Shown piece by piece: positions 12,977 to 58,817 of a stretch of 64,000 nt of DNA (position 1 is its first letter; the number at the start of each line of letters is the position of its first letter). The notes under the pieces were generated by a model that saw nothing but the letters and a program-made list of their open reading frames with translations, was not told the DNA's origin and made no database searches. Position numbers and translations under genes: made by a program. This DNA is from an uncultured Clostridia bacterium (GTDB lineage: Bacteria; Bacillota; Clostridia; TANB77; CAG-508): positions 1,084 through 65,083 of the forward strand of contig CALXXZ010000001.1 in the NCBI GenBank assembly GCA_944392805.1. The letters are read 5' to 3'.

Positions 12977-13552
12977 TTATTTTACTTTTAATCCATTTAT
13001 TATTGTATTTTCATATTCATGGTATAATTGCATTATGTTCATTTCTTCTTCTCTTTTTTTGTAAACAAGTGTAGAACATATTAATCCATATATTTCTGAT
13101 GCAATTGCTCTTGAGTCTCCTTGTTTTATTTGACCTTTTTCTATTCCTTCTTGTACTATTTTTTCTATTTTACTTATATATGAATATACTAAATCTTGAC
13201 ATTTTTTGTTTCTGTCTTCTTTTCCCCAAAATTGGCTTAATAATATTGTTATTATATCTTCATACCTTGCTACTATTTTTATCTGAATTAATACTATTGC
13301 TTTTATTTTGTCAATATAATTACTATGTCTAGCTGTTTTTATATCTATACTGTTTTGCAATAGTTTAATTCCTTCTTCTATTAAAAAGTTAAATATTTCT
13401 TCTTTACTTGAAAAGTGATAATATAATGTTCCTTTAGCAACTCCTACTGTTGCTGTTATTTCTTCTATACTTGTTGCTTCATATCCCTTTTCGGCAAATA
13501 ATTTCATTGATGTTTCAAATATTTTTCTTTTCGTTTTATTCATGGACTTCAC
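12977..13552 (-). CDS. TetR/AcrR-family transcriptional regulator
   Basis: N-terminal HTH LFAEKGYEATSIEEITATVGVAKGTLYYHF. Confidence 0.75.
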   Translation of the reverse strand: MKSMNKTKRKIFETSMKLFAEKGYEATSIEEITATVGVAKGTLYYHFSSKEEIFNFLIEEGIKLLQNSIDIKTARHSNYIDKIKAIVLIQIKIVARYEDIITILLSQFWGKEDRNKKCQDLVYSYISKIEKIVQEGIEKGQIKQGDSRAIASEIYGLICSTLVYKKREEEMNIMQLYHEYENTIINGLKVK

Positions 13553-13667
13553 CTATCTTTTTTTCTTTACTTTCATATTATATAATGTTATCTAAGTTTA
13601 TGCAAGCTTTTTTTGTTTTTTTGAATACTCATTCAGTTTTTTATTTTATGTCTTCTCTTTTGTTTAC

Positions 13668-13730
13668 TGTTTTGTGTGGATATCTTTTATCCACAACCTG
13701 TGGATAATGTGGATAACTCTGTGAATAACT
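13668..13730. promoter_or_regulatory. Cluster of five DnaA boxes
   Basis: TGTGGATAT 13675-83 (1 mismatch); TTATCCACA 13687-95 (perfect); TGTGGATAA 13699-707 and 13708-716 (perfect, opposite orientation); TGTGAATAA 13720-28 (1 mismatch). Confidence 0.55.
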
Positions 13731-13895
13731 TATAATGGTCATATTCTTTTCACACATTATTCACATTTGGTTGTTGATAATTTATCTGTTTACATTTATT
13801 TGTATTTTTTTCGTTTTTTTATGTAACTTATTTATCTCTTTTATCCATACTACTATAAAAAAATGAAAAAAGCCGTTTTTTACAGCTTTTTCATC

Positions 13896-14507
13896 TTATT
13901 TTTTTATATAATTGTTTTGATTTATTTTTAATATTTTAAATTTACCATTTTCATATTCCAGCTCATTAATGCATGCATTACTTTGACTATATTTTTCTCT
14001 CTTTTCTGGATTTTCAATATATTCTATACTATTAAAAAATGTAAAAATTGCACATCCATGTGAGCATATTAGTATAGTTTTTTTATCATTTTCTTTAGCA
14101 ATCTTTGTTATACAATTTTTCATTCTCTTTTCTAGTTCTTCTGTTGTTTCTTGCTCAGGAATCCCCATAATTTCATGATATATTTGTTTGTTTTTCTTTA
14201 TTTCTGGATTTATTTTATCAACCTCATCCCACGTCATTCCATCATATATTCCGAAATACTTTTCCATCAAGTCTTTATCTGTTGTAATTTTTAAATTAAG
14301 TTTCTGTGCTGTTGGCTTTATTGTATCCACACACCTTATTGATGGACTTGAATATATTGCGTCTATTTTTACATTTTTGAGCTCCTCTGCTAAATCTTGA
14401 GCCATTTGCTCCCCTTTTTCGGATAATTTAAAGTCTTTTCTTCCTGTTAGAGAATTTGTAACATTCCCTATACATTCAGCATGCCTTACTAAAATTATTT
14501 TAGTCAT
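13896..14507 (-). CDS. Histidine phosphatase family protein (phosphoglycerate mutase-like)
   Basis: N-terminal ILVRHAECIGN (RHG-type motif). Confidence 0.6.
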   Translation of the reverse strand: MTKIILVRHAECIGNVTNSLTGRKDFKLSEKGEQMAQDLAEELKNVKIDAIYSSPSIRCVDTIKPTAQKLNLKITTDKDLMEKYFGIYDGMTWDEVDKINPEIKKNKQIYHEIMGIPEQETTEELEKRMKNCITKIAKENDKKTILICSHGCAIFTFFNSIEYIENPEKREKYSQSNACINELEYENGKFKILKINQNNYIKK

Positions 14508-15586
14508 TATTGCACCATTCCTTCTTTAGCTTTTTCTAATTCTTCTTTTAAATATTTTCTAGATTTTTGTCTTTCTTGTTCAATTATTTGATTAACTTTT
14601 TGATAATCTATTTCATTTTCTATAACTTTATCTAATTGTTCTATATCTGACAGATTTTGTTTTTCTAGTCCAAATCTTGTTAATAAATCATTAAATTTAT
14701 ATTTATTACTTGATCTAGATATTCCAACAAATTTTCTATTATATTTGATAGAAAAAACTGCTCCATGAAATGTATCTGTAACTACATAACTTGCGTGTTT
14801 AAAATAATTTAATAATTCAAATGGTTTTACATTTATATTTTCATCACACCAAGGTTGGTATAATCCTAGTCCTATCGTTTTTAAATTATTTTGTGCGGCA
14901 AATGCTTTTATTTTTTCAACTTCTTTTTCATTACATAAACGATAGTCATATGAATATATTATAATATAATCTTTTTCTTTAAATTCTTTTGGTTCTATAT
15001 ATTTATCAAAGTCAGAAATAAATACTGGATCTACATTTTCATTTGCATCTATTCCTGAAATTTTCTTAACAAATTCTAATGTATTTTTATCTCTTACAGA
15101 AATATTTTTTAATTGTTCTAACGATTTTTTTACTTCATTTTGTAAATTGTATTTTTCTATTAATTCATAATTTGTATGTCCACAACAAGCTGCATATGTA
15201 ATTGTATATTTTGATACATTGTCCCCAAATAATTGTGTTGTAAAACCTATATTACCATTACCTATACAATTAAACACTTCATCACTACCAATTATTGCAA
15301 AATCGTAATCATTTTTGTAGTTCATCTCTTCTGATAAATTCAAGTATTTTTTTGCATATTCTTCTATAATAATATTTCTTTTTTTTCTAAAATCAACAAA
15401 TTCTTGGTTATCCCAGTCTTTTGTACCTCTATCTTTAAATTCTATTCCTTCATAAATTTTTCCTGGTTTTATATCAATAAAATCAACTGTTGCACCAAAT
15501 TCTTCTAATGTATTTTTTAATGATAGTGCTTGAAAAAATGAACCATAATTTTTTACTCTTTGCATTGATAATATTCCTGCTCTCAT
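14507..15586 (-). CDS. Polysaccharide pyruvyl transferase family protein
   Basis: 359 aa; N-terminal glycine-rich region and typical length; adjacent to an F420H2-dehydrogenase-beta-like FeS protein and a GT2. Confidence 0.55.
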   Translation of the reverse strand: MRAGILSMQRVKNYGSFFQALSLKNTLEEFGATVDFIDIKPGKIYEGIEFKDRGTKDWDNQEFVDFRKKRNIIIEEYAKKYLNLSEEMNYKNDYDFAIIGSDEVFNCIGNGNIGFTTQLFGDNVSKYTITYAACCGHTNYELIEKYNLQNEVKKSLEQLKNISVRDKNTLEFVKKISGIDANENVDPVFISDFDKYIEPKEFKEKDYIIIYSYDYRLCNEKEVEKIKAFAAQNNLKTIGLGLYQPWCDENINVKPFELLNYFKHASYVVTDTFHGAVFSIKYNRKFVGISRSSNKYKFNDLLTRFGLEKQNLSDIEQLDKVIENEIDYQKVNQIIEQERQKSRKYLKEELEKAKEGMVQ

Positions 15587-15596
15587 AATATTCCTC

Positions 15597-16673
15597 CTAA
15601 TTTTCTATATTTTTCATTGCTTCTTCAAATCCTTGAGTTTTATATATTTCTTTAAATTTTAATGTGTTTTTATTTTTAGAAGATGGATAATTTAATTGTT
15701 TATTTCCTTTTAAAGCTTCTTCTAAATTCCTTTCTACTAAAAATATTTTGTCTTCTATTTCTTCAATGAATTTTTTTCCTTTTTCTGTGTTTACTAATAT
15801 TACTGATGTTCCATCTTCAGTAGGATAGTTAAATGGTATATCTTCTCCTAGTCCCCAAAAATCTCCAATTGTAATATCTCCAACTCTTTCTTTTCTTGCA
15901 TATCTACATTGGTAGCAATTTTCTCTATAAAACAATCCATTTAAAAATGATTTATAAAAGAAATCTTCTTTATTATGTTTTTTATATATTACCTTTCCTT
16001 TTTTATAACCTGTAAGATGCCAATTGTTTTCTCCTCTAAATGTCACATTATCTATTTTATTGTTTAATTTAAGATATTTTAGATACTCTTTTAAATATTT
16101 TGCTGGTGGTACTCCATGGCAAATTAAATCTACAGTTATAATATTTTCTATATTTTTATTCTTTAAAAAATTTTTCAAACCATTTACTTGACATGGTGTC
16201 CCTATAAAAATAACTTTTCTATTTTGTTCTACATATGGTTTAAGCTGTGTAAATATAGTTCCTATTGAACTTTGCATATATTTGGAACCTCTAAAGCCTT
16301 CTAATTCTTCCAAATTAGTAGCAATTTGATGAGACAAATTCATTTCATTGTCAAATTTAGTACCTACTGCTATTCCTCCATGTTTTATTATATAATGGTA
16401 CATTTCCCACGCAATTCCACCTGATGAACTTTTCTTTCTTACATTTTCATCAAGTGACCATCCTGCATAAACTTTTAATGGTTCTTTCAAATCAATTTCA
16501 TTGTTTTCTGGACATACTTTCCTACATATATTACAATTTATACATTTTTTTTCATCAATATGGGGCATTAAAGCTCCATATTCGTCTTCTTCCATAGTTA
16601 TACATTTTTTGGGGCATGAATTAAGACACGTACTACATCCTGTACATTTATTTTTGTCACAAATTTCTCTCAT
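15597..16673 (-). CDS. Coenzyme F420 hydrogenase/dehydrogenase beta-subunit-like protein with 2x[4Fe-4S] ferredoxin motifs
   Basis: CTGCSTCLNSCP and CINCNICRKVCP cluster-binding motifs at the N-terminus. Confidence 0.55.
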   Translation of the reverse strand: MREICDKNKCTGCSTCLNSCPKKCITMEEDEYGALMPHIDEKKCINCNICRKVCPENNEIDLKEPLKVYAGWSLDENVRKKSSSGGIAWEMYHYIIKHGGIAVGTKFDNEMNLSHQIATNLEELEGFRGSKYMQSSIGTIFTQLKPYVEQNRKVIFIGTPCQVNGLKNFLKNKNIENIITVDLICHGVPPAKYLKEYLKYLKLNNKIDNVTFRGENNWHLTGYKKGKVIYKKHNKEDFFYKSFLNGLFYRENCYQCRYARKERVGDITIGDFWGLGEDIPFNYPTEDGTSVILVNTEKGKKFIEEIEDKIFLVERNLEEALKGNKQLNYPSSKNKNTLKFKEIYKTQGFEEAMKNIEN

Positions 16674-16682
16674 ATTTTCTCC

Positions 16683-17534
16683 TTATTCAATTAACTTGTA
16701 ATTTCTTTTTGGCATTGCTGGTGAGTTTGTCTTATTTTTTATTGAATCTAATATACAATCTAATCTATCTGGAATGCTCATTGTTTCATTTTTTATAAAA
16801 CTCAAAACATATTTTTTATATTCATCTGGTGTTATTTCATACAATTCCATCATATGAGCTAACATCTTGTACATATCTGTACATCTTCTTATATTTGGTG
16901 TAGACATTATACTTCCTGGTCTATTTCTATAATAATTAAATATTGGGAATTCACCATAACTCAATTTTTCTGATAATATTGTACTCTTCATAGAATACAC
17001 CATATCTTCATAGTACATATCTTCTATGAATGTTATATTATTTTTTCTTAAAAAGCTTGTTTTCCAACATTTGCTAGGCACGCCAAAAAAGATATCACAA
17101 CTTAAACGTGCAATTTTAGTGGAGTTTTCTGCATTTGATAGATATAATTTATTTGAACCTCCTATATATTGAACTCCAAAAAATGTAACATCTGCTTGGT
17201 CTCTTTCTATTATTTCATTTATTCTAGATAATGTATGTTCATCATACATTGTATCGTCGCCATCTAAATAAAGTATATATTCTCCTCTTGCTATTTTCAC
17301 ACCTATGTTTCTAGATGCTCCTAGTCCTTTGTTTATTTCGTTGTTTACTACAACTACATTTTCTGCTTCATATTTTTTCATTTTATCTAATGTTTTGTCT
17401 GTAGAACAATCATTAACTAATATTAATTCATAACTTAAGAAATCTTGAGCCAATACACTCTTTATTGATCTTTCAATATATCCTTCTATATTATATCCAC
17501 AGATTATTATACTATATTTAAATTTACCCTCCAC
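16683..17534 (-). CDS. Family 2 glycosyltransferase
   Basis: YSIIICGYN...LVNDCSTD...YLDGDD (DxD) motifs. Confidence 0.7.
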   Translation of the reverse strand: MEGKFKYSIIICGYNIEGYIERSIKSVLAQDFLSYELILVNDCSTDKTLDKMKKYEAENVVVVNNEINKGLGASRNIGVKIARGEYILYLDGDDTMYDEHTLSRINEIIERDQADVTFFGVQYIGGSNKLYLSNAENSTKIARLSCDIFFGVPSKCWKTSFLRKNNITFIEDMYYEDMVYSMKSTILSEKLSYGEFPIFNYYRNRPGSIMSTPNIRRCTDMYKMLAHMMELYEITPDEYKKYVLSFIKNETMSIPDRLDCILDSIKNKTNSPAMPKRNYKLIE

Positions 17535-17705: not shown

Positions 17706-18017
17706 TTACATAAATTGTAAATATATCACTAATACTATTTCTAATATCAATATTGTGGGTAGTCCAATTGTGAATTTTAATTTCTTAGTTTTATGTCTAA
17801 AAGTATACATTCCTGCAATTGTACCAATTCCTCCACCTAATGCGGTCACTATAAAAAGTGTATTTTCAGGTATCCTCCATTTTCCCCATTTAGCTCTTCT
17901 TTTGTCTGACCACATCATATAAAATCCAATTAGATTAATTACAATTAAATAAATTATTATATTTCTTAATGAAAATATTTCACTTAAGCTTATAATATTT
18001 GTTGTTTCTCCTATCAT
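17706..18017 (-). CDS. DUF1294 family membrane protein
   Basis: MWSDKRRAKWGKWRIPENTLF...ALGGGIGTIAGMYTFRHKTKK signature. Confidence 0.65.
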   Translation of the reverse strand: MIGETTNIISLSEIFSLRNIIIYLIVINLIGFYMMWSDKRRAKWGKWRIPENTLFIVTALGGGIGTIAGMYTFRHKTKKLKFTIGLPTILILEIVLVIYLQFM

Positions 18018-18039: not shown

Positions 18040-18130
18040 AAAGTCTGTCCCTTTTTTTCCTTTTGGGCAAAATGGGGACAGTCCCCAAATTGCCCTTTTG
18101 GAAAATTGGGGACTGTCCCAAAATTTTCCT
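18040..18130. repeat. GC-rich palindromic repeat element (GGGGACWGTCCCC family), copy 1; likely doubles as a terminator
   Basis: GGGGACAGTCCCC 18074-86 and GGGGACTGTCCC 18108-19 embedded in TTTTGG...AAATT context; a degenerate third core at 18046-54. Confidence 0.6.
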
Positions 18131-51400: not shown

Positions 51401-54400
51401 TTATAATACAAACCTTTTAATTAATATAATTCCTACCAAAACTGTTACTAATAATCCTAATGTAAGCATGAAATATGTTTTTGTACTACCAGTTGCTACT
51501 GCTAATATTACTTGTGCTTCATCTATATCGTCTTCTCCTTCTTCTTGATTGTCTGGTGTTGAATCTCTATCTGGCACATCATATTCATTATCATCTTCTG
51601 ATATTTCTGCCACATTTGTTTTTAAGTTTAAGTTGTCTTCTCCATTTATCCATGTTAGTACAACTTCTACTATTGCACTTTCTCCTGGTTGTAGTAATGT
51701 TCCTTCTAGTTGTCTTGTAGATATTACATTATTTCCTTCATCTGTCCATTCTGGATTATCTTCTGCAACAAATTTTAATCCTTCTGGTACATAGTCTGTT
51801 ATTTCTGTTGCATATCCTGGAATATCTCCTTCATTTGTTATTTTTATTCCAAATCCGAATTTTACTGTTACTTCATCTAGTTTTTTTCTATGTAATTCTA
51901 CTTTTACTACTGGTTCTGGTACTTCTGTTCCATCATATCCTGTTTCTGTGATTTTTTCTACTCCATCTTCGATTACTATTGCTTTTGTTACATATTTTAA
52001 TAATGCTAAATCAAAATATTCTACTTTTACATTTTCTATGTCTTGGTCATCTTCTCCTTCATTCCACTCATCTGGTTCTGAGTCTTTATCTTTTATAGGG
52101 TTTCCTTCTTCATCTGTGTCATCTGATATTTGTGCATGGTTTGTTATTATATATTCATTTGAATTTGGGTCTTTTACTTTAAATGCTATTTTTATGTCTT
52201 TATAATGTAGTATTGTTCCATCAAATGCTTCTATTAAGTTGTCTTCTCCATTTTCTTTTGATAGATAATTTGTTTTTACTTTTACTGCTTCTTCTACATT
52301 TTCTGTTTCTTGGTCATTTTCGTCATACATTTTCCACATATATTCAACATTTGTTGAATCTTCTGGTAAATATTCTAGGAATTCTGGTATATCATCTGTT
52401 ATTTCACTTGCATATCCTGATATTTCTCCTTCATTATATATTCTTAATGTATATATAACTACATCATCAACATGTACTAATAATGGTTCTTTTGTATGTT
52501 CATATCTTATTTGCCCATTTTCATATTTTGCTTGTGGCTCTCTATCTGTAACAGGTCTATCTTTTACTTGTGTTATGAATTTTCTTAATGCTAAATCAAA
52601 TTCTTTTACATATACTTTTTCGAAGTCATCATCATCTTCGTTTCCTGGTACATATGGATTGTTTTCTTCATCTTGTTTATATCCTGGCAAATCTTTATCT
52701 TCTGGTATGTCTTCTTCTACATTGTTAGAACTTGAGTCTACATCTTCTGGCACTATTGTTTCACCATATTTATATTCTGATATTTCTGCTATATTTGTAA
52801 TTCTTTCATCAGGTATAGCATTTTCTGATATTTTACATTCTATCTGAATATCCTCATAATCTAATGTTGTTCCATTAAATGCATCTATTTCTTTATCTGT
52901 TAAATATTTAGTTGTAGCAAGTCTACCATCTTCTGATATCTGCCATTGATATCTGGTATTTATTTCACTATCAGCAACAAATTCCAAATATGGTGGTAAA
53001 TAATCTTTTACCTCGCTTGCATAACCATCAATTTCTCCTTCATTATATACTCTAATTGTGTATATTACTGTGTCTCCAACTTTTAATGCTACTGGTTTTT
53101 TAGAATGATTATATATTGCTGTTGTATCTGTTTTATTTACTAATGGACTTACATCTACTACTGGCTCTCTGTTTTGTGCCGTTTCATTTACTTGTGCTAT
53201 AAATTTTCTTAAACTTAAGTCAAATGTTTTTACATATAATTTTTCAAAGTCATCATCATCTTGTTCTCCTTTATAATAGTAATCACTATCTGTTAAATCA
53301 TCTTTATTATCTGTATGTCCTTTATAATCTTCCATGTTATCTTTATTTACATCTGGTGCATTTTCTGGTTCTGAATCTCTATCTACTGCTACAACATTAT
53401 CTTCTGTATCATATGCCCCGCTTATCCATGCTACATTTGTTAATATATTTTTGTCTCCTGCTTGTGGTTTATGTATTACTTTACATTGTAATTCTATTGT
53501 TTCATAATCTAGTTTTCCAGTTTCATATGCTTGTAAATCTTTTGGTGTTCCTGCTATATCAAATGTTATTTTGTTTGTTGTTGTGTCATATGTTACATTA
53601 TATGTATTTTTATCTGCTCCTGTAGAGTCTTTTGATGTTACTGTACTACTTGGTATATATATTAATCCAGTTGGCAATTGGTCTATTATTTGATTTGCAT
53701 ATCCTGTTTTTTCTCCTTCATTATATATTGTTATTGAATATGTTACTATATCATTTTCTTGAACATATACAGGATCTTTTTTATGATTGTATGTTGCTGT
53801 TGTTTCTGTTTGTAATGTATCTTCTGATATATTTGGTACTCTTTGTGGTAATTTTAAATTTGATAATTCTACTCCATTTATTTCTGTTATATATTTTCTT
53901 AATGCTAAATCAAATATTTTTACTTCTTCTGGTGCATGTGTATTTGTTGCTTTAAATCCAACTGTTGCTGTTCCTGATATTTCTACTTCATATCCTTCTG
54001 GTACATCATTTTCTATTACTTCATATACAATGTCTACTCCATCTTGTTTTTTTGGTAAATCTGTAAATGTATGTGTCCAGTTATTGCCTTCATCTAATGT
54101 TACAGTTTCTTTTACTTCTTTATTTGCAAGTAAACTTACACTTACTGATTCTGGTCTGATTCCATCTTGGTTATTTGCATCATCCCATACTTTTGTTACT
54201 GAAACTGATGTTAAGTCTGTTTCATGTGTATTTACTACTGTAAATCCATCTGTTGCATTTCCTTCAATACTTACTACATATCCTTCTGGAACATTTTTTT
54301 CTTGTACAATATATGTAATAGGATTTCCTCCTGATTTTAATGGTAAGTTTTCAAATGTATATTTCCATCCATTGCCTTCATTTAGTGTTACTGTTTCTTT

Positions 54401-57400
54401 TTCAACTCCGTTTGCAAGTAATGTTACATCTACTGAATCTGGTCTTAATCCATCTTGATTGTTATTATCTGACCAAACCTTAGTTACTGATATTTGTGTA
54501 ATTTCTGGTGTATGTTTATTTGTTATTATATATCCTGTTTCTGCATCTCCTGTTATTTCATTTGTATAACCTTCTGGTATGGTTTCTTCTACTGTATATT
54601 CTATTGGTTGTCCATTTGCTTTTACTGGTAAGTTTTCAAATGTATACTCCCATCCGTTTTCAGCATTTAATTCTACTGGATTTTTTGTTATTATAACTCC
54701 ATTTGCTTTTAATTCTACAAATATAGAGGTTGGTCTTATTCCATCTTGATTTTCTGCATCATCCCATACTTTACTTACATGTACTTGTGTTTCTTCTGGT
54801 GTATATGTGTTTGTTATTATATATCCTGTTTCTGCATCTCCTGTTATTTCTACTGTATATCCTGTTGGAACTTGAACTTCTTCTACTTCATAATTTATTA
54901 GATTACCATTTTTATATTTTGGTAAGTCTGTGAATTTTCCTGTCCAACCATTTTGTTCATTTAATGTTACTGTTTCTTTTTCTGCTCCATTTGCTAATAA
55001 TGTTACACTTACTGATGTTGGCCTTTTTCCATCTTGATTATTTGTATCTTCCCACACTTTTGTTACTGTTACACTTGTTTGTGGTTGTAAAATTAGCTTT
55101 TCGAAATCATCATCATCTTGTTCACCTTTGTAATAGTATTCATCATCTGTTAAATCATCTTTATTATCAGTATGTCCTTTATAATCTTCCATATTGTCTT
55201 TGTCTACATCTGGTGCATTTTCTGGCTCAGAGTCTCTATCTATTGCTACTTTATCTTCTTCTGTATCATATGCCCCGCTTATCCATGCTACATTTGTTAA
55301 TATTTTATCTGTCGTTTCACTTGGTACTTCTGTTACTACACATTGTATTTCTATTGTTTCATAATCTAAGTTTCCAACTTCATATGCTTGTAAATCTTTT
55401 GGTGTACCTTGTATATCAAATGTTATTTTGTTTGTTGATGGTTCATATGTTACTTTATATGTATTTTTGTCTGCTCCTGCTGAGTCTTTTGATGTTACTG
55501 TACTTCCTGGATTATATATTAGTCCTGTTGGTAGTTGGTCTATTATTTGACTTGCGTATCCTGATTTTTCTCCTTCATTATATATAGTTATTTTATATGT
55601 TACTATATCATCTGTTTCTACTGATACTGGGTCTTTTCTATGTTTATATGTTGCTGTTGTTCCTGTTTGTAATGCGTTTTCTTCTATTTGTGGTATTCTA
55701 TTGTTTATATCAGTTTGGTTTACTTTTGTTATATATTTTCTTAAACTCAAGTCAAATATTTTATGTGTATTTGTTATTGTATAATCATTTTTTTCATTTT
55801 CTGTTATTTGTGCTTCATATCCTTCTGGTACTACTTCTTCTATTGTATATACTATTTCTACACCTTCATCTCTATATTTTGGTAAATCTTTAAATGAGCC
55901 TGACCAATTATTATTTTGGTTTAATGTTAATGTTTTTCCTTCAACTTTATTTCCATCTGCTAATAAATTTACTGTTACCTGTTGTGGACGTATTTTATCT
56001 AAATTATCATGGTCATTCCATATTTTATTTACTTTTACTTCAGTAGTTTCTGGTGTATATGTATTTTGAATTGTAAAATTATTTTTTGAGTTTGTTACTA
56101 CATTTTCTGTATATCCTGTTGGAACTGTTTCTTCTTTAACAGTATATACAATTTCTTTTCCTGCTTTATATTTTGGTAAATTTGTAAATGTATATGACCA
56201 ATCTGTACTAGATGTTATTGTTATTGTTTGTCCATCAACTTTTTCTCCATCTGCATATAAACTAATTTGTATTGATGTTGGTCTTTTTCCATCTTGATTA
56301 TTTGAATCTATCCATTCTTTGTTTACTTCTACTTGTACAACTTCTGGTGTGTGTGAATTTGTAATTATATATCCTGTATCAGCTGTTCCTGATGACTCTG
56401 ATGTATAATTTGGTACTTGTTTTTCTGTTACAGTATATTCTATTTTTGTTCCATTTTGATATTTTGGTAAATTTTCAAATGTGTGGCTCCATCCATTTGA
56501 TTCATTTAATGTTGCTGTATCTACTAGATTTTCTCCATTTTTTAGTTCTACTTGTATTGATGTTGGTCGTATTCCATCTTGATTATTTGTATCATTCCAT
56601 TTTTTATTTACTGTTACATCTGTTATTTCTGGTGTATGACTATTTATAATTGTAAATGTTCCTGTTGGATTTTCTACTATTTGTTTTTGATATCCTGTTG
56701 GTACTTGTGCTTCTTCTACTGTATATTTTATATCTGCACCATTTTCATCCTTTTTCATTAGTCCTGTAAATGTGTATGTCCATTTATTTGCTTCATTTAA
56801 TGTTGCTCTTTCTACTTCTGTACTTCCATTTTTTAATATTACTTCTATTGATGATGGTCTCATTCCATCTTGATTGTTGCTATCTTGCCATTGTTTTATT
56901 ACTGTTATCTCTGTTTCTTCTAATTTAGCAGTTAATCCTACTGTTTCTTCATGTGGGTTTAACTCTAAATCTGCAACTGGCTGTTCTGCTTCTAATGTTA
57001 TTGTTGTTCCATTATCTGTTCCTTTTAACCATAATGTTTTTGTTGTTGTGTTATATGAAGTTTTTAATTCTATATTTACTTCATTTCCTAAATTACTTGG
57101 TATTGATATATATATATCTTGTCCAACTAATTTTTCTATGTTTTGTTCTTTTAATACTGTTCCTGAACTATTTGTAAATTTATATTTTGATGAATTTATT
57201 TCAGTTCCATCTCCACTTGTTACTTTTAATTCTATACTGTATTGTAATTCATTGTTTTTATCTATTCTTATTGGTCCTACTATATTATTATTACCTTTTC
57301 TTATAATCTGTAATTGATATTTTCCACTTTCATCTGTTGATAATCCTGTTGTATTTACATTTATTGGCTTACCGATTTTATAATTATTTTCTTGTGTATA

Positions 57401-58228
57401 GTATTTTGCATTGTTTATAGCTGAATCTATTAAATAATTATACAATATTCTAGCTTGTTCTTCTCTATCCTCTCCACCGTTTGCTATTTCTGATAATTGT
57501 GTATATCTTATACCATCTGTAGTCACAGTTAACCAATCATATAATGATTTTTTGTCAAATTCATTATCTCCATCTAATTTTGCATTCATGAAATACCATA
57601 TTACTGCTTGTTGTACTGCTTTTATATCACTGTCAGTTAGTACTGTATTATATTCATAAATTGTTACTTGGTCAGAATAATCATATCCATCTACTGGCTC
57701 ATAATAATATACATCATATTCATCATCATATTCTATTCCTATTTTTTCTAATAATTTGTCTTTATCTGAACTTCCAGGAATATAACTATTATCTAATACC
57801 CACAATAGTTCTCTGTAATAACCATTTGGATCTAAAATTTTTGCTACTATATCATCTGGTGTTCCTTGTGATGGGTTTCCAAGTAATTGTATTAATTTAT
57901 CTCTATCTTCTTGTAAATCAAATGATAAATTATATCCTACAATATTATCTACATTTATTTCCCATGATTCACCATATTCGCCTTTTAAACAATATAATTG
58001 TCTCTGCGCAACGCTTTCATCTCCTCTATTTCCTGAATCATAGTTTCTCAAATTCCATAATGTTTTACCACCATTATCTGGCCTTCCTATTGAATACCCC
58101 ATTCCGTCTTTGTGTGTAGCATTAATTCCTATGTATAATACTTCGTTTCCCGCAAAACTTACTAGATTGAATATTAGGTATACTACTAATAGTAATATTA
58201 CTCCTATAATAAGCACTTTTTTCTTCAT
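51401..58228 (-). CDS. Giant surface adhesin (2275 aa): thioester-domain-like N-terminus, multiple DUF11-type and CnaB-type repeat domains, C-terminal TM anchor
   Basis: Signal peptide; N-domain with LYCLKGEYG (Cys) and VQQAVIWYF (Gln) resembling TED motifs; about 10 CnaB repeats (KVWDDANNQDGIRP...); DUF11-like repeats (FDLALRKYITEINGV...TTATYNHKKDP); C-terminal VILAVATGSTKTYF + hydrophobic helix + KRFVL. Confidence 0.75.
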   Translation of the reverse strand: MKKKVLIIGVILLLVVYLIFNLVSFAGNEVLYIGINATHKDGMGYSIGRPDNGGKTLWNLRNYDSGNRGDESVAQRQLYCLKGEYGESWEINVDNIVGYNLSFDLQEDRDKLIQLLGNPSQGTPDDIVAKILDPNGYYRELLWVLDNSYIPGSSDKDKLLEKIGIEYDDEYDVYYYEPVDGYDYSDQVTIYEYNTVLTDSDIKAVQQAVIWYFMNAKLDGDNEFDKKSLYDWLTVTTDGIRYTQLSEIANGGEDREEQARILYNYLIDSAINNAKYYTQENNYKIGKPINVNTTGLSTDESGKYQLQIIRKGNNNIVGPIRIDKNNELQYSIELKVTSGDGTEINSSKYKFTNSSGTVLKEQNIEKLVGQDIYISIPSNLGNEVNIELKTSYNTTTKTLWLKGTDNGTTITLEAEQPVADLELNPHEETVGLTAKLEETEITVIKQWQDSNNQDGMRPSSIEVILKNGSTEVERATLNEANKWTYTFTGLMKKDENGADIKYTVEEAQVPTGYQKQIVENPTGTFTIINSHTPEITDVTVNKKWNDTNNQDGIRPTSIQVELKNGENLVDTATLNESNGWSHTFENLPKYQNGTKIEYTVTEKQVPNYTSESSGTADTGYIITNSHTPEVVQVEVNKEWIDSNNQDGKRPTSIQISLYADGEKVDGQTITITSSTDWSYTFTNLPKYKAGKEIVYTVKEETVPTGYTENVVTNSKNNFTIQNTYTPETTEVKVNKIWNDHDNLDKIRPQQVTVNLLADGNKVEGKTLTLNQNNNWSGSFKDLPKYRDEGVEIVYTIEEVVPEGYEAQITENEKNDYTITNTHKIFDLSLRKYITKVNQTDINNRIPQIEENALQTGTTATYKHRKDPVSVETDDIVTYKITIYNEGEKSGYASQIIDQLPTGLIYNPGSTVTSKDSAGADKNTYKVTYEPSTNKITFDIQGTPKDLQAYEVGNLDYETIEIQCVVTEVPSETTDKILTNVAWISGAYDTEEDKVAIDRDSEPENAPDVDKDNMEDYKGHTDNKDDLTDDEYYYKGEQDDDDFEKLILQPQTSVTVTKVWEDTNNQDGKRPTSVSVTLLANGAEKETVTLNEQNGWTGKFTDLPKYKNGNLINYEVEEVQVPTGYTVEITGDAETGYIITNTYTPEETQVHVSKVWDDAENQDGIRPTSIFVELKANGVIITKNPVELNAENGWEYTFENLPVKANGQPIEYTVEETIPEGYTNEITGDAETGYIITNKHTPEITQISVTKVWSDNNNQDGLRPDSVDVTLLANGVEKETVTLNEGNGWKYTFENLPLKSGGNPITYIVQEKNVPEGYVVSIEGNATDGFTVVNTHETDLTSVSVTKVWDDANNQDGIRPESVSVSLLANKEVKETVTLDEGNNWTHTFTDLPKKQDGVDIVYEVIENDVPEGYEVEISGTATVGFKATNTHAPEEVKIFDLALRKYITEINGVELSNLKLPQRVPNISEDTLQTETTATYNHKKDPVYVQENDIVTYSITIYNEGEKTGYANQIIDQLPTGLIYIPSSTVTSKDSTGADKNTYNVTYDTTTNKITFDIAGTPKDLQAYETGKLDYETIELQCKVIHKPQAGDKNILTNVAWISGAYDTEDNVVAVDRDSEPENAPDVNKDNMEDYKGHTDNKDDLTDSDYYYKGEQDDDDFEKLYVKTFDLSLRKFIAQVNETAQNREPVVDVSPLVNKTDTTAIYNHSKKPVALKVGDTVIYTIRVYNEGEIDGYASEVKDYLPPYLEFVADSEINTRYQWQISEDGRLATTKYLTDKEIDAFNGTTLDYEDIQIECKISENAIPDERITNIAEISEYKYGETIVPEDVDSSSNNVEEDIPEDKDLPGYKQDEENNPYVPGNEDDDDFEKVYVKEFDLALRKFITQVKDRPVTDREPQAKYENGQIRYEHTKEPLLVHVDDVVIYTLRIYNEGEISGYASEITDDIPEFLEYLPEDSTNVEYMWKMYDENDQETENVEEAVKVKTNYLSKENGEDNLIEAFDGTILHYKDIKIAFKVKDPNSNEYIITNHAQISDDTDEEGNPIKDKDSEPDEWNEGEDDQDIENVKVEYFDLALLKYVTKAIVIEDGVEKITETGYDGTEVPEPVVKVELHRKKLDEVTVKFGFGIKITNEGDIPGYATEITDYVPEGLKFVAEDNPEWTDEGNNVISTRQLEGTLLQPGESAIVEVVLTWINGEDNLNLKTNVAEISEDDNEYDVPDRDSTPDNQEEGEDDIDEAQVILAVATGSTKTYFMLTLGLLVTVLVGIILIKRFVL

Positions 58229-58264
58229 TTGACACCCTTCCTTTGTATCTAATTTTCCAACTTA

Positions 58265-58293
58265 ATTATATAATTATCGACAAAAAAAATCAA
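58265..58293 (-). promoter_or_regulatory. sigmaA promoter of giant adhesin gene 1
   Basis: TTGATT (rc of 58288-93), 17 nt, TATAAT (rc of 58265-70), then AAGGAAGGGTG RBS. Confidence 0.5.
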
Positions 58294-58329
58294 TGTTTAT
58301 TTTTACTAATTTTTAATATTTAAAAAAAT

Positions 58330-58772
58330 GTTACAATTCACATCCTGTATTTGAGTAGGGTGGGGGTGCTATGCCTTATTTTATGAACTTTTCGGCTCAA
58401 TACGATATTTAAGAATTTGTAATATAGTTTATTGCGTCTCTTTCACTCAGGCTCAACTCCTTGTATATTCATTACGAATAAATGACGAATGTGATTGGAG
58501 AATTATTAGAAACTCTTAAATAATTTTATGGAAAATGTTCACGTTGAGCGTAGCGAGGACTAAGTGAAAGGGTGCCATAAAATTATTTTAGAGTTTCTTA
58601 TAATTTGTATTGAGCCGAGGAATTTATAAGAAATGAATATACAAGGAGTTGCCCGTGAACATCCCTCAATAAATTATTTAACAAATTCTAAAACATCTCC
58701 AATCACATTCAAAGTTCATAAAATAAGGCATAGCACCCCCACCCTACTCAAATACAGGATGTGAATTGTAAC
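58330..58772. repeat. ~443-bp structured element with perfect 61-bp terminal inverted repeats (MITE-like), GC-richer than its surroundings
   Basis: Left arm GTTACAATTCACATCCTGTATTTGAGTAGGGTGGGGGTGCTATGCCTTATTTTATGAACTT (58330-58390) equals the rc of the right arm (58712-58772); the interior has nested, rearranged inverted copies. Confidence 0.65.
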
Positions 58773-58780
58773 AAAAAAGA

Positions 58781-58806
58781 TAAGAAACCTTTTCTAGTTT
58801 CTTACC
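58781..58806 (-). terminator. Hairpin terminator after giant adhesin gene 2
   Basis: TAAGAAAC..GTTTCTTA stem then T6 on the minus strand, immediately before the IR element. Confidence 0.5.
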
Positions 58807-58817
58807 TTTTCATATTA

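What the first reader, a model, noticed from the sequence alone, without database searches (positions are those of the whole stretch)
13668..13730. Dense cluster of five DnaA boxes away from any dnaA/dnaN gene
Three perfect TTATCCACA/TGTGGATAA boxes and two one-mismatch boxes occur within 55 bp, in both orientations. They lie in the AT-rich intergenic region upstream of the tetR/fatty-acyl-CoA-ligase operon. Such clusters act as DnaA-titrating sites or DnaA-regulated promoters in Bacillus, for example near sda, ywlC and yydA. Here it could couple lipid metabolism or a neighbouring gene to replication status.
Basis: partly seen in the sequence, partly recalled or inferred. Interest (0 to 1): 0.55.

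Follow-up and report, generated by a model that had tools for sequence, protein, structure and literature searches.

The report
Conserved DnaA-binding site beside polC
A roughly 180-bp non-coding block packed with binding sites for the replication initiator DnaA is real and strongly conserved in uncultured gut Clostridia. It travels with the polC-ysdA (DUF1294) gene pair rather than with the neighbouring lipid operon, so it looks like a Bacillus-type chromosomal DnaA landing pad and not a lipid-replication switch.

Summary
Three perfect TTATCCACA boxes and two near-perfect ones lie in 54 bp (13675-13728), with three more nearby. Chance predicts about 4e-8 such triplets per 64 kb. The Ishikawa density/affinity score is 4.33, against a threshold of 0.3 and 0.36-1.64 for the eight B. 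subtilis DnaA-bound sites.

It is not an origin. GC skew and gene orientation do not switch, dnaA and dnaN are absent, and there is no DnaA-trio or GC cluster.

The link to tetR and lipid metabolism is not supported. The tetR-ligase operon is present in all 80 related species, but only 17 carry the boxes. The same box module lies just downstream of a DUF1294 (YsdA-like) gene, usually after polC, in 53 metagenome contigs. There the next gene is glyQS, uvrA, an L,D-transpeptidase, rhodanese or femAB. In this window a 4-gene insertion separates DUF1294 from the block.

The same module (three direct boxes and one inverted box) also occurs at known Firmicute DnaA sites: downstream of tsaD/gcp, next to rlmH/yydA, and upstream of dnaA.

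The best reading is an autonomous, selected, non-origin DnaA-box cluster. It is a new member of a known kind, with unexplained phased TACATAA motifs on both flanks.

The parts
13646..13828 (-). Whole conserved block, about 183 bp. It runs from the left AGTTACATAA motif to the right GACATAA motif and contains all conserved DnaA boxes.
   Evidence: Alignments of 18 species and 50 distinct metagenome sequences. Median identity to the window is 75% for the block, against 71% for tetR third codon positions.
13687..13728 (-). Core four-box module, read on the minus strand: TTATTCACA-gag-TTATCCACA-TTATCCACA-ggt-TGTGGATAA. That is three head-to-tail boxes facing one inverted box.
   Evidence: Median identity across 16 species is 93%. 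The box at -12 is not part of the search pattern, yet it is present in 20 of 20 diverged flank groups.
13675..13683 (-). One-mismatch box ATATCCACA. It is specific to this lineage (the window and L001 only).
13757..13765 (+). Conserved inverted box TTATTCACA (TGTGAATAA on the minus strand), 49 bp upstream of the core.
   Evidence: Present at -49/-50 in 16 of 20 diverged flank groups.
13772..13780 (-). One-mismatch box TTATCAACA.
   Evidence: Conserved in the closest subclade and in some others.
13819..13828 (-). Left flanking motif AGTTACATAA. The ACATAA hexamer lies at -108 from the core start.
   Evidence: ACATAA lies at -107/-108 or about -95 in most of the 24 flank groups (present in the left flank in 23 of 24), always on the same strand. 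Its function is unexplained.
13646..13655 (-). Right flanking motif GAAGACATAA. The ACATAA hexamer lies at +65 from the core start.
   Evidence: ACATAA lies at +39 to +42, +52 to +54, +64/65 or +71 to +73 in 24 of 24 flank groups. Its function is unexplained.
13577..13605 (-). tetR promoter: TTGCAT (13605-13600), 17-nt spacer, TATAAT (13582-13577). It is a neighbour of the block, not part of it.
   Evidence: Read. It is conserved in species with and without the box block.
13622..13636 (-). Palindrome CTGAATGAGTATTCA, a candidate operator for TetR itself.
   Evidence: Conserved CTGAAT-N4-ATTCA just upstream of the -35 element, including in L014, which lacks the DnaA boxes. This assignment is inferred.
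12977..13543 (-). tetR-family regulator. It is the downstream neighbour in this lineage only.
   Evidence: Pfam TetR_N. It shows full-length but sub-threshold similarity to Bacillus FadR.
13896..17534 (-). Four-gene insertion (GT2, FrhB-like, polysaccharide pyruvyl transferase, His phosphatase). It separates the block from DUF1294 in this genome.
   Evidence: Pfam. It is absent in 13 relatives where DUF1294 abuts the block. The same insertion is seen in L216.
17706..18017 (-). DUF1294 (YsdA-like) membrane protein gene, the conserved upstream partner of the block.
   Evidence: Pfam and the JGI name. A DUF1294 gene ends upstream of the core in 53 metagenome contigs, 110-350 bp upstream in most.
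18129..22982 (-). polC, the replicative DNA polymerase III alpha subunit of the PolC type. It is usually upstream of DUF1294.
   Evidence: Pfam and synteny.

Best explanation
This is an autonomous, non-origin DnaA-box cluster (DBC): a roughly 180-bp non-coding element that assembles a tight DnaA oligomer.

Its core is four closely packed boxes. Three are head-to-tail, with spacers of 3 and 0 bp. One is inverted, 3-5 bp away. A further inverted box lies 49 bp upstream.

The element is kept at one chromosomal address, the 3' side of polC-DUF1294(ysdA), in a broad clade of small-genome, low-GC gut Clostridia. What is transcribed next to it does not matter. It therefore most likely acts on DnaA itself. 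It would sequester or otherwise modulate the initiator, as the six extra-origin DBCs of B. subtilis do. Any effect on the tetR promoter about 100 bp downstream would be a side effect.

Shown: the sequence anatomy, its statistical significance, its conservation, and its synteny with DUF1294 rather than tetR.

Inferred: DnaA binding, from box quality and from the same module at known DnaA-bound loci. The effect on initiation is also inferred.
For: Site strength. Box density and quality exceed every experimentally bound B. subtilis site: A is 4.33 against 0.36-1.64 (PMC2533591).

Chance is excluded.

Conservation. The core is 93% identical across 16 species, while tetR third codon positions are 71% identical. 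All 16 contigs picked through DUF1294 alone carry the cluster.

Synteny. Fifty-three metagenome contigs carry the core downstream of DUF1294, in most 110-350 bp from its end. Their DUF1294 proteins are only 48-63% identical to each other. The downstream genes differ: tetR, glyQS, uvrA, YkuD, rhodanese and FemAB.

Autonomy. The block survives separation from DUF1294, as in the window's 4-gene insertion and in L007, L018, L019 and L127.

Same module elsewhere. It lies downstream of tsaD/gcp in a GC-0.50 Bacillales-like group. That position corresponds to the conserved gcp-ydiF DBC, which also sits at gene 3' ends. It also lies next to rlmH/yydA and upstream of dnaA.

Precedent. Deleting the B. 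subtilis DBCs causes early initiation, and a single DBC partly complements this even when placed at the terminus (PMC3245932).
Against: No binding or genetic data exist for these uncultured organisms.

The distance to oriC is unknown. The only complete chromosome (OV788638.1) has the locus at 0.75 of 1.55 Mb. If that record starts at dnaA, the locus is origin-distal, whereas most Bacillus DBCs are origin-proximal.

Some species show decayed boxes (L020, L056, and strain variants), so the element is not indispensable.

The next gene's promoter always lies 111-139 bp downstream of the core in three different contexts. A local transcriptional role therefore cannot be excluded.

The metagenome sample was ascertained with the three-box core itself.
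Confidence: 0.6

Rival explanations
1. It is a DnaA-regulated promoter element for the tetR/acyl-CoA-ligase operon. On this reading it couples fatty-acid handling to replication status, like sda, ywlC or yydA in B. subtilis.
For: The boxes lie about 70-95 bp upstream of the tetR -35 element. Upstream DnaA boxes activate sda in B. subtilis (PMC4447404). The downstream promoter lies at a similar distance (+111 to +139) in three contexts.
Against: The tetR-ligase-unk299 operon and its promoter are conserved in 80 species, but only 17 have the boxes. Insertions of 35-115 bp between the boxes and the promoter are tolerated. tetR has its own conserved palindrome next to the -35 element, which is also present without the boxes (L014). 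The same block precedes glyQS, uvrA, ldt, rhodanese and femAB elsewhere.
Confidence: 0.13
2. It is a cis element acting on the upstream polC-DUF1294 transcription unit. It could be a DnaA roadblock or terminator at the unit's 3' end, or a DnaA-controlled antisense promoter.
For: Linkage to the 3' end of DUF1294 is tight and the polarity is fixed. In some lineages the inverted box pair is followed by a T-run and scores as a terminator (L091). In L097 two upstream boxes form a terminator-like hairpin. Several relatives have no other terminator between DUF1294 and the block.
Against: The T-run is absent in the window and in most groups. Several species have a separate terminator before the block (L003, L021, L056). 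The block persists when 3.6 kb of other genes with their own terminator separate it from DUF1294. No conserved antisense promoter could be defined.
Confidence: 0.1
3. It is a catalytic DnaA-cycle site, DARS-like or datA-like, that changes the nucleotide state of DnaA rather than merely binding it.
For: The core topology (two head-to-tail boxes facing an inverted box 3-5 bp away) matches the E. coli DARS1 core read here: TAATACACA-N3-TTATCCACA-N5-AGTGGATAA on the reverse strand. The DARS core is defined by one box opposed to the other two (PMC5742627). The conserved, phased flanking TACATAA motifs could be sites for an accessory protein, as IHF and Fis are at datA and DARS2.
Against: The spacing of the opposed pair varies from 3 to 5 bp between lineages, whereas DARS spacing is fixed. 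Firmicutes lack IHF, Fis and Hda. Bound nucleotide state appears less central to initiation control in B. subtilis (PMC4447404). Mixed box orientation is common in ordinary DBCs.
Confidence: 0.07
4. It is a replication origin, a second origin, or a relic of one (chromosomal or from an integrated plasmid or phage).
For: Box density is at oriC level. The same three-box core lies upstream of dnaA in L083 and next to rolling-circle Rep genes in small viral contigs.
Against: GC skew stays negative (-0.25 to -0.3) on both sides, and all flanking genes are on the same strand. dnaA and dnaN are absent. There is no DnaA-trio array and no GC cluster. There is no plasmid match, and phage matches cover only the 32-36 bp box core. 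Chromosomal synteny holds across many species.
Confidence: 0.03
5. It is an operator for a dimeric transcription factor such as TetR binding the perfect 9-bp inverted repeat, or it is a chance AT-rich repeat.
For: TTATCCACA-N3-TGTGGATAA is a perfect palindrome next to a tetR gene.
Against: The palindrome spacer varies from 3 to 5 bp. The additional direct repeats are conserved. The block occurs without tetR in most lineages. The chance expectation is about 1e-6 per genome.
Confidence: 0.02

Closest known systems
B. subtilis extra-origin DnaA-box clusters, especially DBC[gcp-ydiF] (Ishikawa 2007, PMC2533591; Okumura 2012, PMC3245932; Smith & Grossman 2015, PMC4447404)
   Same: It is intergenic and has at least 4 tightly spaced TTATNCACA boxes with several perfect TTATCCACA. 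It is conserved between species and lies at the 3' end of a gene rather than in an obvious promoter. The identical four-box module sits downstream of tsaD/gcp in a Bacillales-like metagenome group. B. subtilis gcp-ydiF also has abutting boxes and three direct boxes facing an inverted one.
   Different: The neighbours differ: polC-DUF1294 here. No DnaA-bound region near ysdA or polC is listed for B. subtilis. The A value is much higher. The element is possibly origin-distal. It has extra conserved TACATAA flanking motifs that the gcp-type block lacks. The organisms are uncultured small-genome Clostridia.
DnaA-controlled promoters sda, ywlC and yydA (B. subtilis)
   Same: A cluster of DnaA boxes lies upstream of a promoter. 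One retrieved locus with the same core sits next to rlmH/yydA.
   Different: Here the downstream gene is not conserved and the spacing to the promoter is not fixed.
E. coli datA
   Same: It is a non-coding cluster of high-affinity DnaA boxes outside oriC that restrains initiation, and its chromosomal position is conserved.
   Different: datA needs IHF, and its essential boxes all point the same way. Firmicutes have no IHF, and no homologous sequence exists here.
E. coli DARS1/DARS2 core
   Same: It has three boxes with one opposed to the other two and a 3-5 bp gap at the opposed pair.
   Different: Here the two direct boxes abut (0 bp, against 3 bp in DARS1). The gap at the opposed pair varies. 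No evidence for ADP-DnaA preference or nucleotide exchange exists in this phylum.

Membership tests
Extra-origin DnaA-box cluster (DBC; Ishikawa 2007 / Okumura 2012) | At least four successive TTATNCACA boxes (up to 1 mismatch) with A = summed affinity divided by mean gap greater than 0.3 | tested here: met
   A = 4.33 (sum 13, d = 3.0) at 13675-13728. The rest of the window scores at most 0.08.
Extra-origin DnaA-box cluster (DBC; Ishikawa 2007 / Okumura 2012) | Located in an intergenic region outside oriC | tested here: met
   The region between His_Phos_1 and tetR is intergenic. There is no skew or gene-orientation switch and no dnaA or dnaN.
Extra-origin DnaA-box cluster (DBC; Ishikawa 2007 / Okumura 2012) | Conserved in related species | tested here: met
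   It is present in 17 species genomes, 16 of 16 DUF1294-selected contigs and 53 diverged metagenome contigs.
Extra-origin DnaA-box cluster (DBC; Ishikawa 2007 / Okumura 2012) | Stable DnaA binding in vivo or in vitro | not testable with these tools
   This needs ChIP or IDAP-seq with the cognate DnaA.
Extra-origin DnaA-box cluster (DBC; Ishikawa 2007 / Okumura 2012) | Deletion advances initiation; usually origin-proximal | not testable with these tools
   The position relative to oriC is unknown. L012 lies at 746-755 kb of a 1,549-kb chromosome whose start point is not verified.
DnaA-regulated promoter (sda/ywlC/yydA type) | Boxes associated with the same regulated gene across species | tested here: not met
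   tetR occurs without the boxes in 63 of 80 species. The boxes occur with six different downstream genes.
DnaA-regulated promoter (sda/ywlC/yydA type) | Constrained position of boxes relative to the promoter | tested here: inconclusive
   The distance from boxes to the -35 element is 95-210 bp within the tetR subclade. Across three contexts the -35 element lies +111 to +139 from the core.
DnaA-regulated promoter (sda/ywlC/yydA type) | DnaA-dependent change in transcription | not testable with these tools
   No expression data are available.
Chromosomal origin (oriC, Firmicute bipartite type) | GC-skew and gene-orientation switch at the site | tested here: not met
   Skew is negative throughout and genes are on the minus strand on both sides.
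Chromosomal origin (oriC, Firmicute bipartite type) | DnaA-trio array preceded by a GC cluster, next to an AT-rich unwinding element | tested here: not met
   No in-phase WAR trio array with TAG or TAA content and no GC cluster (5 of 6 G/C) were found in 13400-14000. The definition comes from PMC7561715.
Chromosomal origin (oriC, Firmicute bipartite type) | Adjacent to dnaA/dnaN | tested here: not met
   No Bac_DnaA or DNA_pol3_beta ORF is in the window. Compare L083, where both are present.
DARS-type DnaA-reactivating sequence | Core of three boxes with one opposed to the other two, at fixed spacing | tested here: inconclusive
   The topology matches DARS1. The spacings differ (0 bp against 3 bp), and the gap at the opposed pair varies from 3 to 5 bp.
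DARS-type DnaA-reactivating sequence | Preferential ADP-DnaA binding and ADP release | not testable with these tools
   This requires a biochemical assay.

The most novel reading that the evidence does not exclude
The block may be a composite cell-cycle element rather than a plain DnaA sink. On this reading, a fixed DnaA-assembly module is flanked on both sides by helically phased, same-strand TACATAA motifs. These resemble the inner part of the XerD arm of Firmicute dif (AGTTTACATAA, recalled from memory, not tested). A second protein would bind them. The element would be held at a defined, possibly terminus-proximal, chromosomal address next to polC. It could then act as a late-replicating DnaA regulator, by DARS- or datA-like nucleotide-state control or by linking DnaA to chromosome organisation. 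No such class of site has been described in Clostridia.
Probability: 0.1. Interest if true: 0.75.

Novelty: new member of a known kind. Interest (0 to 1): 0.45.

Why it matters
Control of replication initiation outside Bacillus and E. coli is poorly known, and nothing is known for the abundant uncultured small-genome gut Clostridia.

This locus is an unusually clean candidate regulatory DnaA site. It has near-maximal predicted affinity and is held in place across lineages whose neighbouring proteins are only about 50-60% identical. Its four-box module is shared with the Bacillales gcp, yydA and dnaA-upstream sites.

That recurrence suggests a general high-affinity DnaA assembly cassette in Firmicutes that could be tested biochemically. 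The module could also serve as a search key for DnaA regulatory sites in metagenomes.

The analysis also corrects a tempting but unsupported story, that lipid metabolism is coupled to replication.

Tried and rejected
1. Origin or relic origin. Rejected on skew, gene orientation, and the absence of dnaA/dnaN, a DnaA-trio and a GC cluster.

2. Small gene or sRNA in the spacer. The 38-aa and 43-aa ORFs overlap the boxes or lack a conserved start. Rfam found nothing at gathering thresholds, and only sub-threshold noise at E<1.

3. dif site. The conserved GTAAAC and ACATAAT stretches do not form a two-arm dif. The only dif-like hit in the window (22/28 at 58157) is inside a gene.

4. Mobile element. 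There is no plasmid hit, and phage hits cover only the box core. The viral contigs carrying the core have a different context with a rolling-circle Rep.

5. The ACATAA motifs as sigma-A -10 or -35 elements. Partner hexamers are not consistently present. Only the +72 copy in some lineages forms TTGACA.

6. Identifying the window's own record and its position. The exact-match look-up of TetR failed. The look-up of DUF1294 returned only a 4.7-kb contig.

7. About 19 metagenome hits to the core lie inside a Bacteroides-like hybrid two-component gene, where the sequence encodes VDNVDN. I treated these as coincidence.

8. Looking for a B. subtilis counterpart near ysdA or polC among the 269 in vitro DnaA regions. 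None is listed.

Full report
**Observation**

On the window's plus strand the region 13675-13728 reads TGTGGATAT-ctt-TTATCCACA-acc-TGTGGATAA-TGTGGATAA-ctc-TGTGAATAA. That gives three perfect TTATCCACA boxes and two one-mismatch boxes in 54 bp. Three further one-mismatch boxes lie at 13757, 13772 and 13841. With the Bacillus consensus TTATNCACA, five boxes are perfect.

Box-like 9-mers are not enriched in the window as a whole: 32 were found against 25 expected. The clustering is what stands out.
- About 0.7 perfect boxes are expected per 64 kb.
- About 4e-8 triplets within 30 bp are expected per window.
- Ishikawa's density/affinity index A is 4.33 here. The threshold is 0.3, and the eight DnaA-bound regions of B. 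subtilis score 0.36-1.64.
- The next best site in the window scores 0.08.
- None of 300 simulated windows exceeded 2.0.

**Setting in the window**

The DNA is about 26% G+C with a strongly negative GC skew along all 64 kb. Almost all genes are on the minus strand. The boxes lie in a 350-bp spacer on the minus-strand gene line.

Upstream of the spacer is a His_Phos_1 gene with its terminator at 13866-13892. Downstream is a TetR-family gene (ATG at 13543), followed by an AMP-binding acyl-CoA ligase and an unknown 299-aa protein.

The tetR promoter (TTGCAT-17-TATAAT, 13605-13577) and a palindrome, CTGAATGAGTATTCA, lie between the boxes and tetR. No dnaA or dnaN is present.

Further upstream of the His_Phos_1 gene lie three more polysaccharide genes, then a DUF1294 gene (17706-18017), then polC (18129-22982).

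**It is not an origin**

Skew and gene orientation are the same on both sides. The spacer has no DnaA-trio array and no GC cluster (definition in PMC7561715). The block has no plasmid match, and phage matches cover only the 32-36 bp box core. Rfam finds no RNA family here. The short ORFs in the spacer are not conserved.

**Relatives selected through TetR**

A genome scan with the TetR protein returned 80 loci, one per species. All are uncultured gut Clostridia, including 'Clostridium sp. CAG:343' and '26_21'. One is a complete 1.55-Mb chromosome.

All 80 loci contain tetR, and nearly all keep tetR-ligase-unk299 together. Only 17 carry the box cluster.

In 13 of those 17 the gene order is polC, DUF1294, box block, tetR. 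The window's four polysaccharide genes are therefore an insertion between DUF1294 and the block. The same insertion is seen in L216.

Close relatives without the boxes (L004, L005, L006, L008, L014, L017) have a different upstream neighbour. They keep the tetR promoter, and L014 also keeps the palindrome.

Within the box-bearing species, the box core is 93% identical to the window. tetR third codon positions are 71% identical. Insertions of 35-115 bp between the boxes and the tetR -35 element are tolerated.

**Where else the core occurs**

I scanned metagenome and viral collections for the three-box core TTATCCACATTATCCACA-N2-5-TGTGGATAA. I classified the flanks with tblastn, an HMM and Pfam.

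Of 120 metagenome contigs, 53 have a DUF1294 gene on the same strand upstream of the core, in most of them ending 110-350 bp before it. Another 10 low-GC contigs are too short upstream to judge.

The DUF1294 proteins in these 53 contigs are only 48-63% identical to each other. PolC, when present, is 62-80% identical to the window's.

The gene after the block varies: tetR, glyQS, uvrA, a YkuD L,D-transpeptidase, rhodanese or FemAB. The gene before DUF1294 is usually polC and sometimes a HIT protein.

Sixteen contigs picked through DUF1294 alone all carry the cluster, with occasional single-base strain variants.

The conserved partner of the block is therefore the 3' side of DUF1294 (YsdA-like), not tetR. 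The block also survives separation from DUF1294, as in the window, L007, L018, L019 and L127. It therefore behaves as an autonomous element.

**Anatomy in the wide clade**

Coordinates here run from the first base of the two abutting boxes, read on the gene strand. The conserved elements are:
- an inverted box (TGTGAATAA) at -49, in 16 of 20 flank groups
- TTATTCACA at -12, in 20 of 20 groups, followed by a 3-bp spacer
- TTATCCACA at 0
- TTATCCACA at +9
- TGTGGATAA at +21 to +23

The boxes at -12 and -49 were not part of the search pattern, so their conservation is not an ascertainment artefact.

The hexamer ACATAA flanks the boxes on the same strand in essentially every group. The extended forms are AGT(T/A)TACATAA and GAATACATAAT.
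- Left copies lie at -107/-108 or about -95 in most groups; ACATAA is present in the left flank in 23 of 24.
- Right copies lie at +39 to +42, +52 to +54, +64/65 or +71 to +73 (24 of 24), roughly one helical turn apart.
- About 0.09 occurrences are expected per flank.

These copies are not DnaA boxes and are not consistently promoter hexamers. They remain unexplained.

**The other contexts of the core are informative controls**
- Nine GC-0.50 contigs carry the same four-box module (box, N3, box, box, N4, inverted box) just downstream of tsaD/gcp, with an ABC-F ydiF-like gene nearby. This position corresponds to the conserved gcp-ydiF DBC of Bacillales. That DBC is one of the eight strongest DnaA-bound regions in B. 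subtilis and also lies at gene 3' ends.
- One contig has the core next to rlmH/yydA. Another has it between rnpA and dnaA-dnaN.
- About 20 are small elements with a rolling-circle Rep.
- About 19 are coding coincidences inside a Bacteroides-like two-component gene.

The module is therefore a recurrent Firmicute DnaA-binding cassette. This supports the inference that DnaA binds the window's block, although nothing here measures binding.

B. subtilis itself has no listed DnaA-bound region near ysdA or polC. The polC-DUF1294 site is thus a clade-specific member of the class. Ishikawa et al. likewise noted species-specific DBCs in other Bacillus genomes.

**Mechanism**

The best-supported reading is an extra-origin DnaA-box cluster that assembles a DnaA oligomer and acts on the initiator pool. 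This is how the six B. subtilis DBCs are thought to work. Their joint deletion advances initiation, and one re-inserted DBC partly complements this even at the terminus.

Three points argue against a gene-specific promoter role: the changing downstream gene, the unconstrained spacing in the tetR subclade, and the many tetR operons without boxes.

A local effect cannot be excluded. In three contexts the next promoter lies 111-139 bp after the core.

Roles in ending the polC-DUF1294 transcript are possible in some lineages, where a T-run follows the inverted pair. They are not general.

The core has the same topology as the E. coli DARS1 core that I read from MG1655: two direct boxes facing an opposed one. 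The spacings differ and vary, and Firmicutes lack the accessory factors. A DARS/datA-like catalytic role is therefore only a low-probability alternative.

**Open point**

The position relative to oriC could not be determined. The one complete chromosome has the locus at 746-755 kb of 1,549 kb, and replication there runs toward higher coordinates (orientation). If that record starts at dnaA, the site is near the terminus. That would be unusual for a Bacillus-type DBC and would make the site more interesting. The record's start point is unverified.

**Verdict**

The site is a new member of a known kind, extra-origin DnaA-box clusters.

Three features are worth follow-up:
- the conserved polC-ysdA address
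- the four-box module shared with known DnaA sites
- the unexplained phased TACATAA flanks

Noticed in passing
window 13646-13655 and 13819-13828 (minus strand); L081-L200 DUF1294-type loci: Same-strand ACATAA/TACATAA motifs flank the DnaA-box block at fixed, roughly helically phased positions (-107/-95; +42, +53, +64, +73) in essentially all diverged lineages. They are not DnaA boxes. They resemble the inner part of the XerD arm of Firmicute dif (recalled from memory). Their function is unknown.
   Followed up: partly
L138, L168, L182 (GC about 0.50), core region: The identical four-box module (box-N3-box-box-N4-inverted box) lies just downstream of tsaD/gcp, with an ABC-F ydiF-like gene nearby. 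This position corresponds to the conserved Bacillales gcp-ydiF DnaA-box cluster. The module looks like a reusable high-affinity cassette.
   Followed up: partly
L083, L128, L166: The same three-box core occurs in three further places. In L083 it lies between rnpA and dnaA-dnaN, the canonical origin region of a GC-0.30 organism. In L128 it lies next to rlmH/yydA. In L166 it sits in a 13-box cluster upstream of a dnaG-like primase gene in a GC-0.54 organism.
   Followed up: partly
window 13896-17534: A four-gene cassette (GT2, FrhB/FdhB-like Fe-S protein, polysaccharide pyruvyl transferase, histidine phosphatase) is inserted between DUF1294 and the box block. It is absent from 13 related species. 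It is present in another sample (L216) and partly in L019.
   Followed up: partly
window 1-10032: The left end looks like a prophage. It holds Sipho_Gp157, a Rad52-like protein, an S24/HTH repressor at 7724-8419 and an integrase at 8572-9783. It abuts tRNA-Gln (9870-9944) and tRNA-His (9956-10032), a likely integration site.
   Followed up: partly
window 35316-37198: A two-gene AbiL abortive-infection system (AbiLii/RloB-like plus AbiLi AAA ATPase) sits between pyrB and an unannotated stretch.
   Followed up: partly
window 51401-63347 and 26586-30907: Two giant surface proteins are present (2275 aa with 8 Cna_B repeats; 1509 aa with DUF11 repeats). Upstream is a cluster with a pilin-like N_methyl protein, DUF5305 and an S26/S24 peptidase. 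Together they suggest an adhesin or pilus locus.
   Followed up: no
window 58157-58184 (+): A 22/28 match to the B. subtilis dif sequence (recalled from memory) lies inside the Cna_B gene. It is probably chance.
   Followed up: no
window 18129-22982: PolC here is 1617 aa, longer than the roughly 1430-aa Bacillus enzyme. It is more than 90% identical across species whose TetR is only about 87% identical.
   Followed up: no
L082, L106, L117 and about 16 others (GC about 0.45): The three-box DNA pattern also occurs inside a Bacteroides-like hybrid two-component sensor gene, where it encodes ...VDNVDN.... This is a recurrent false positive for DnaA-box cluster searches in gut metagenomes.
   Followed up: yes
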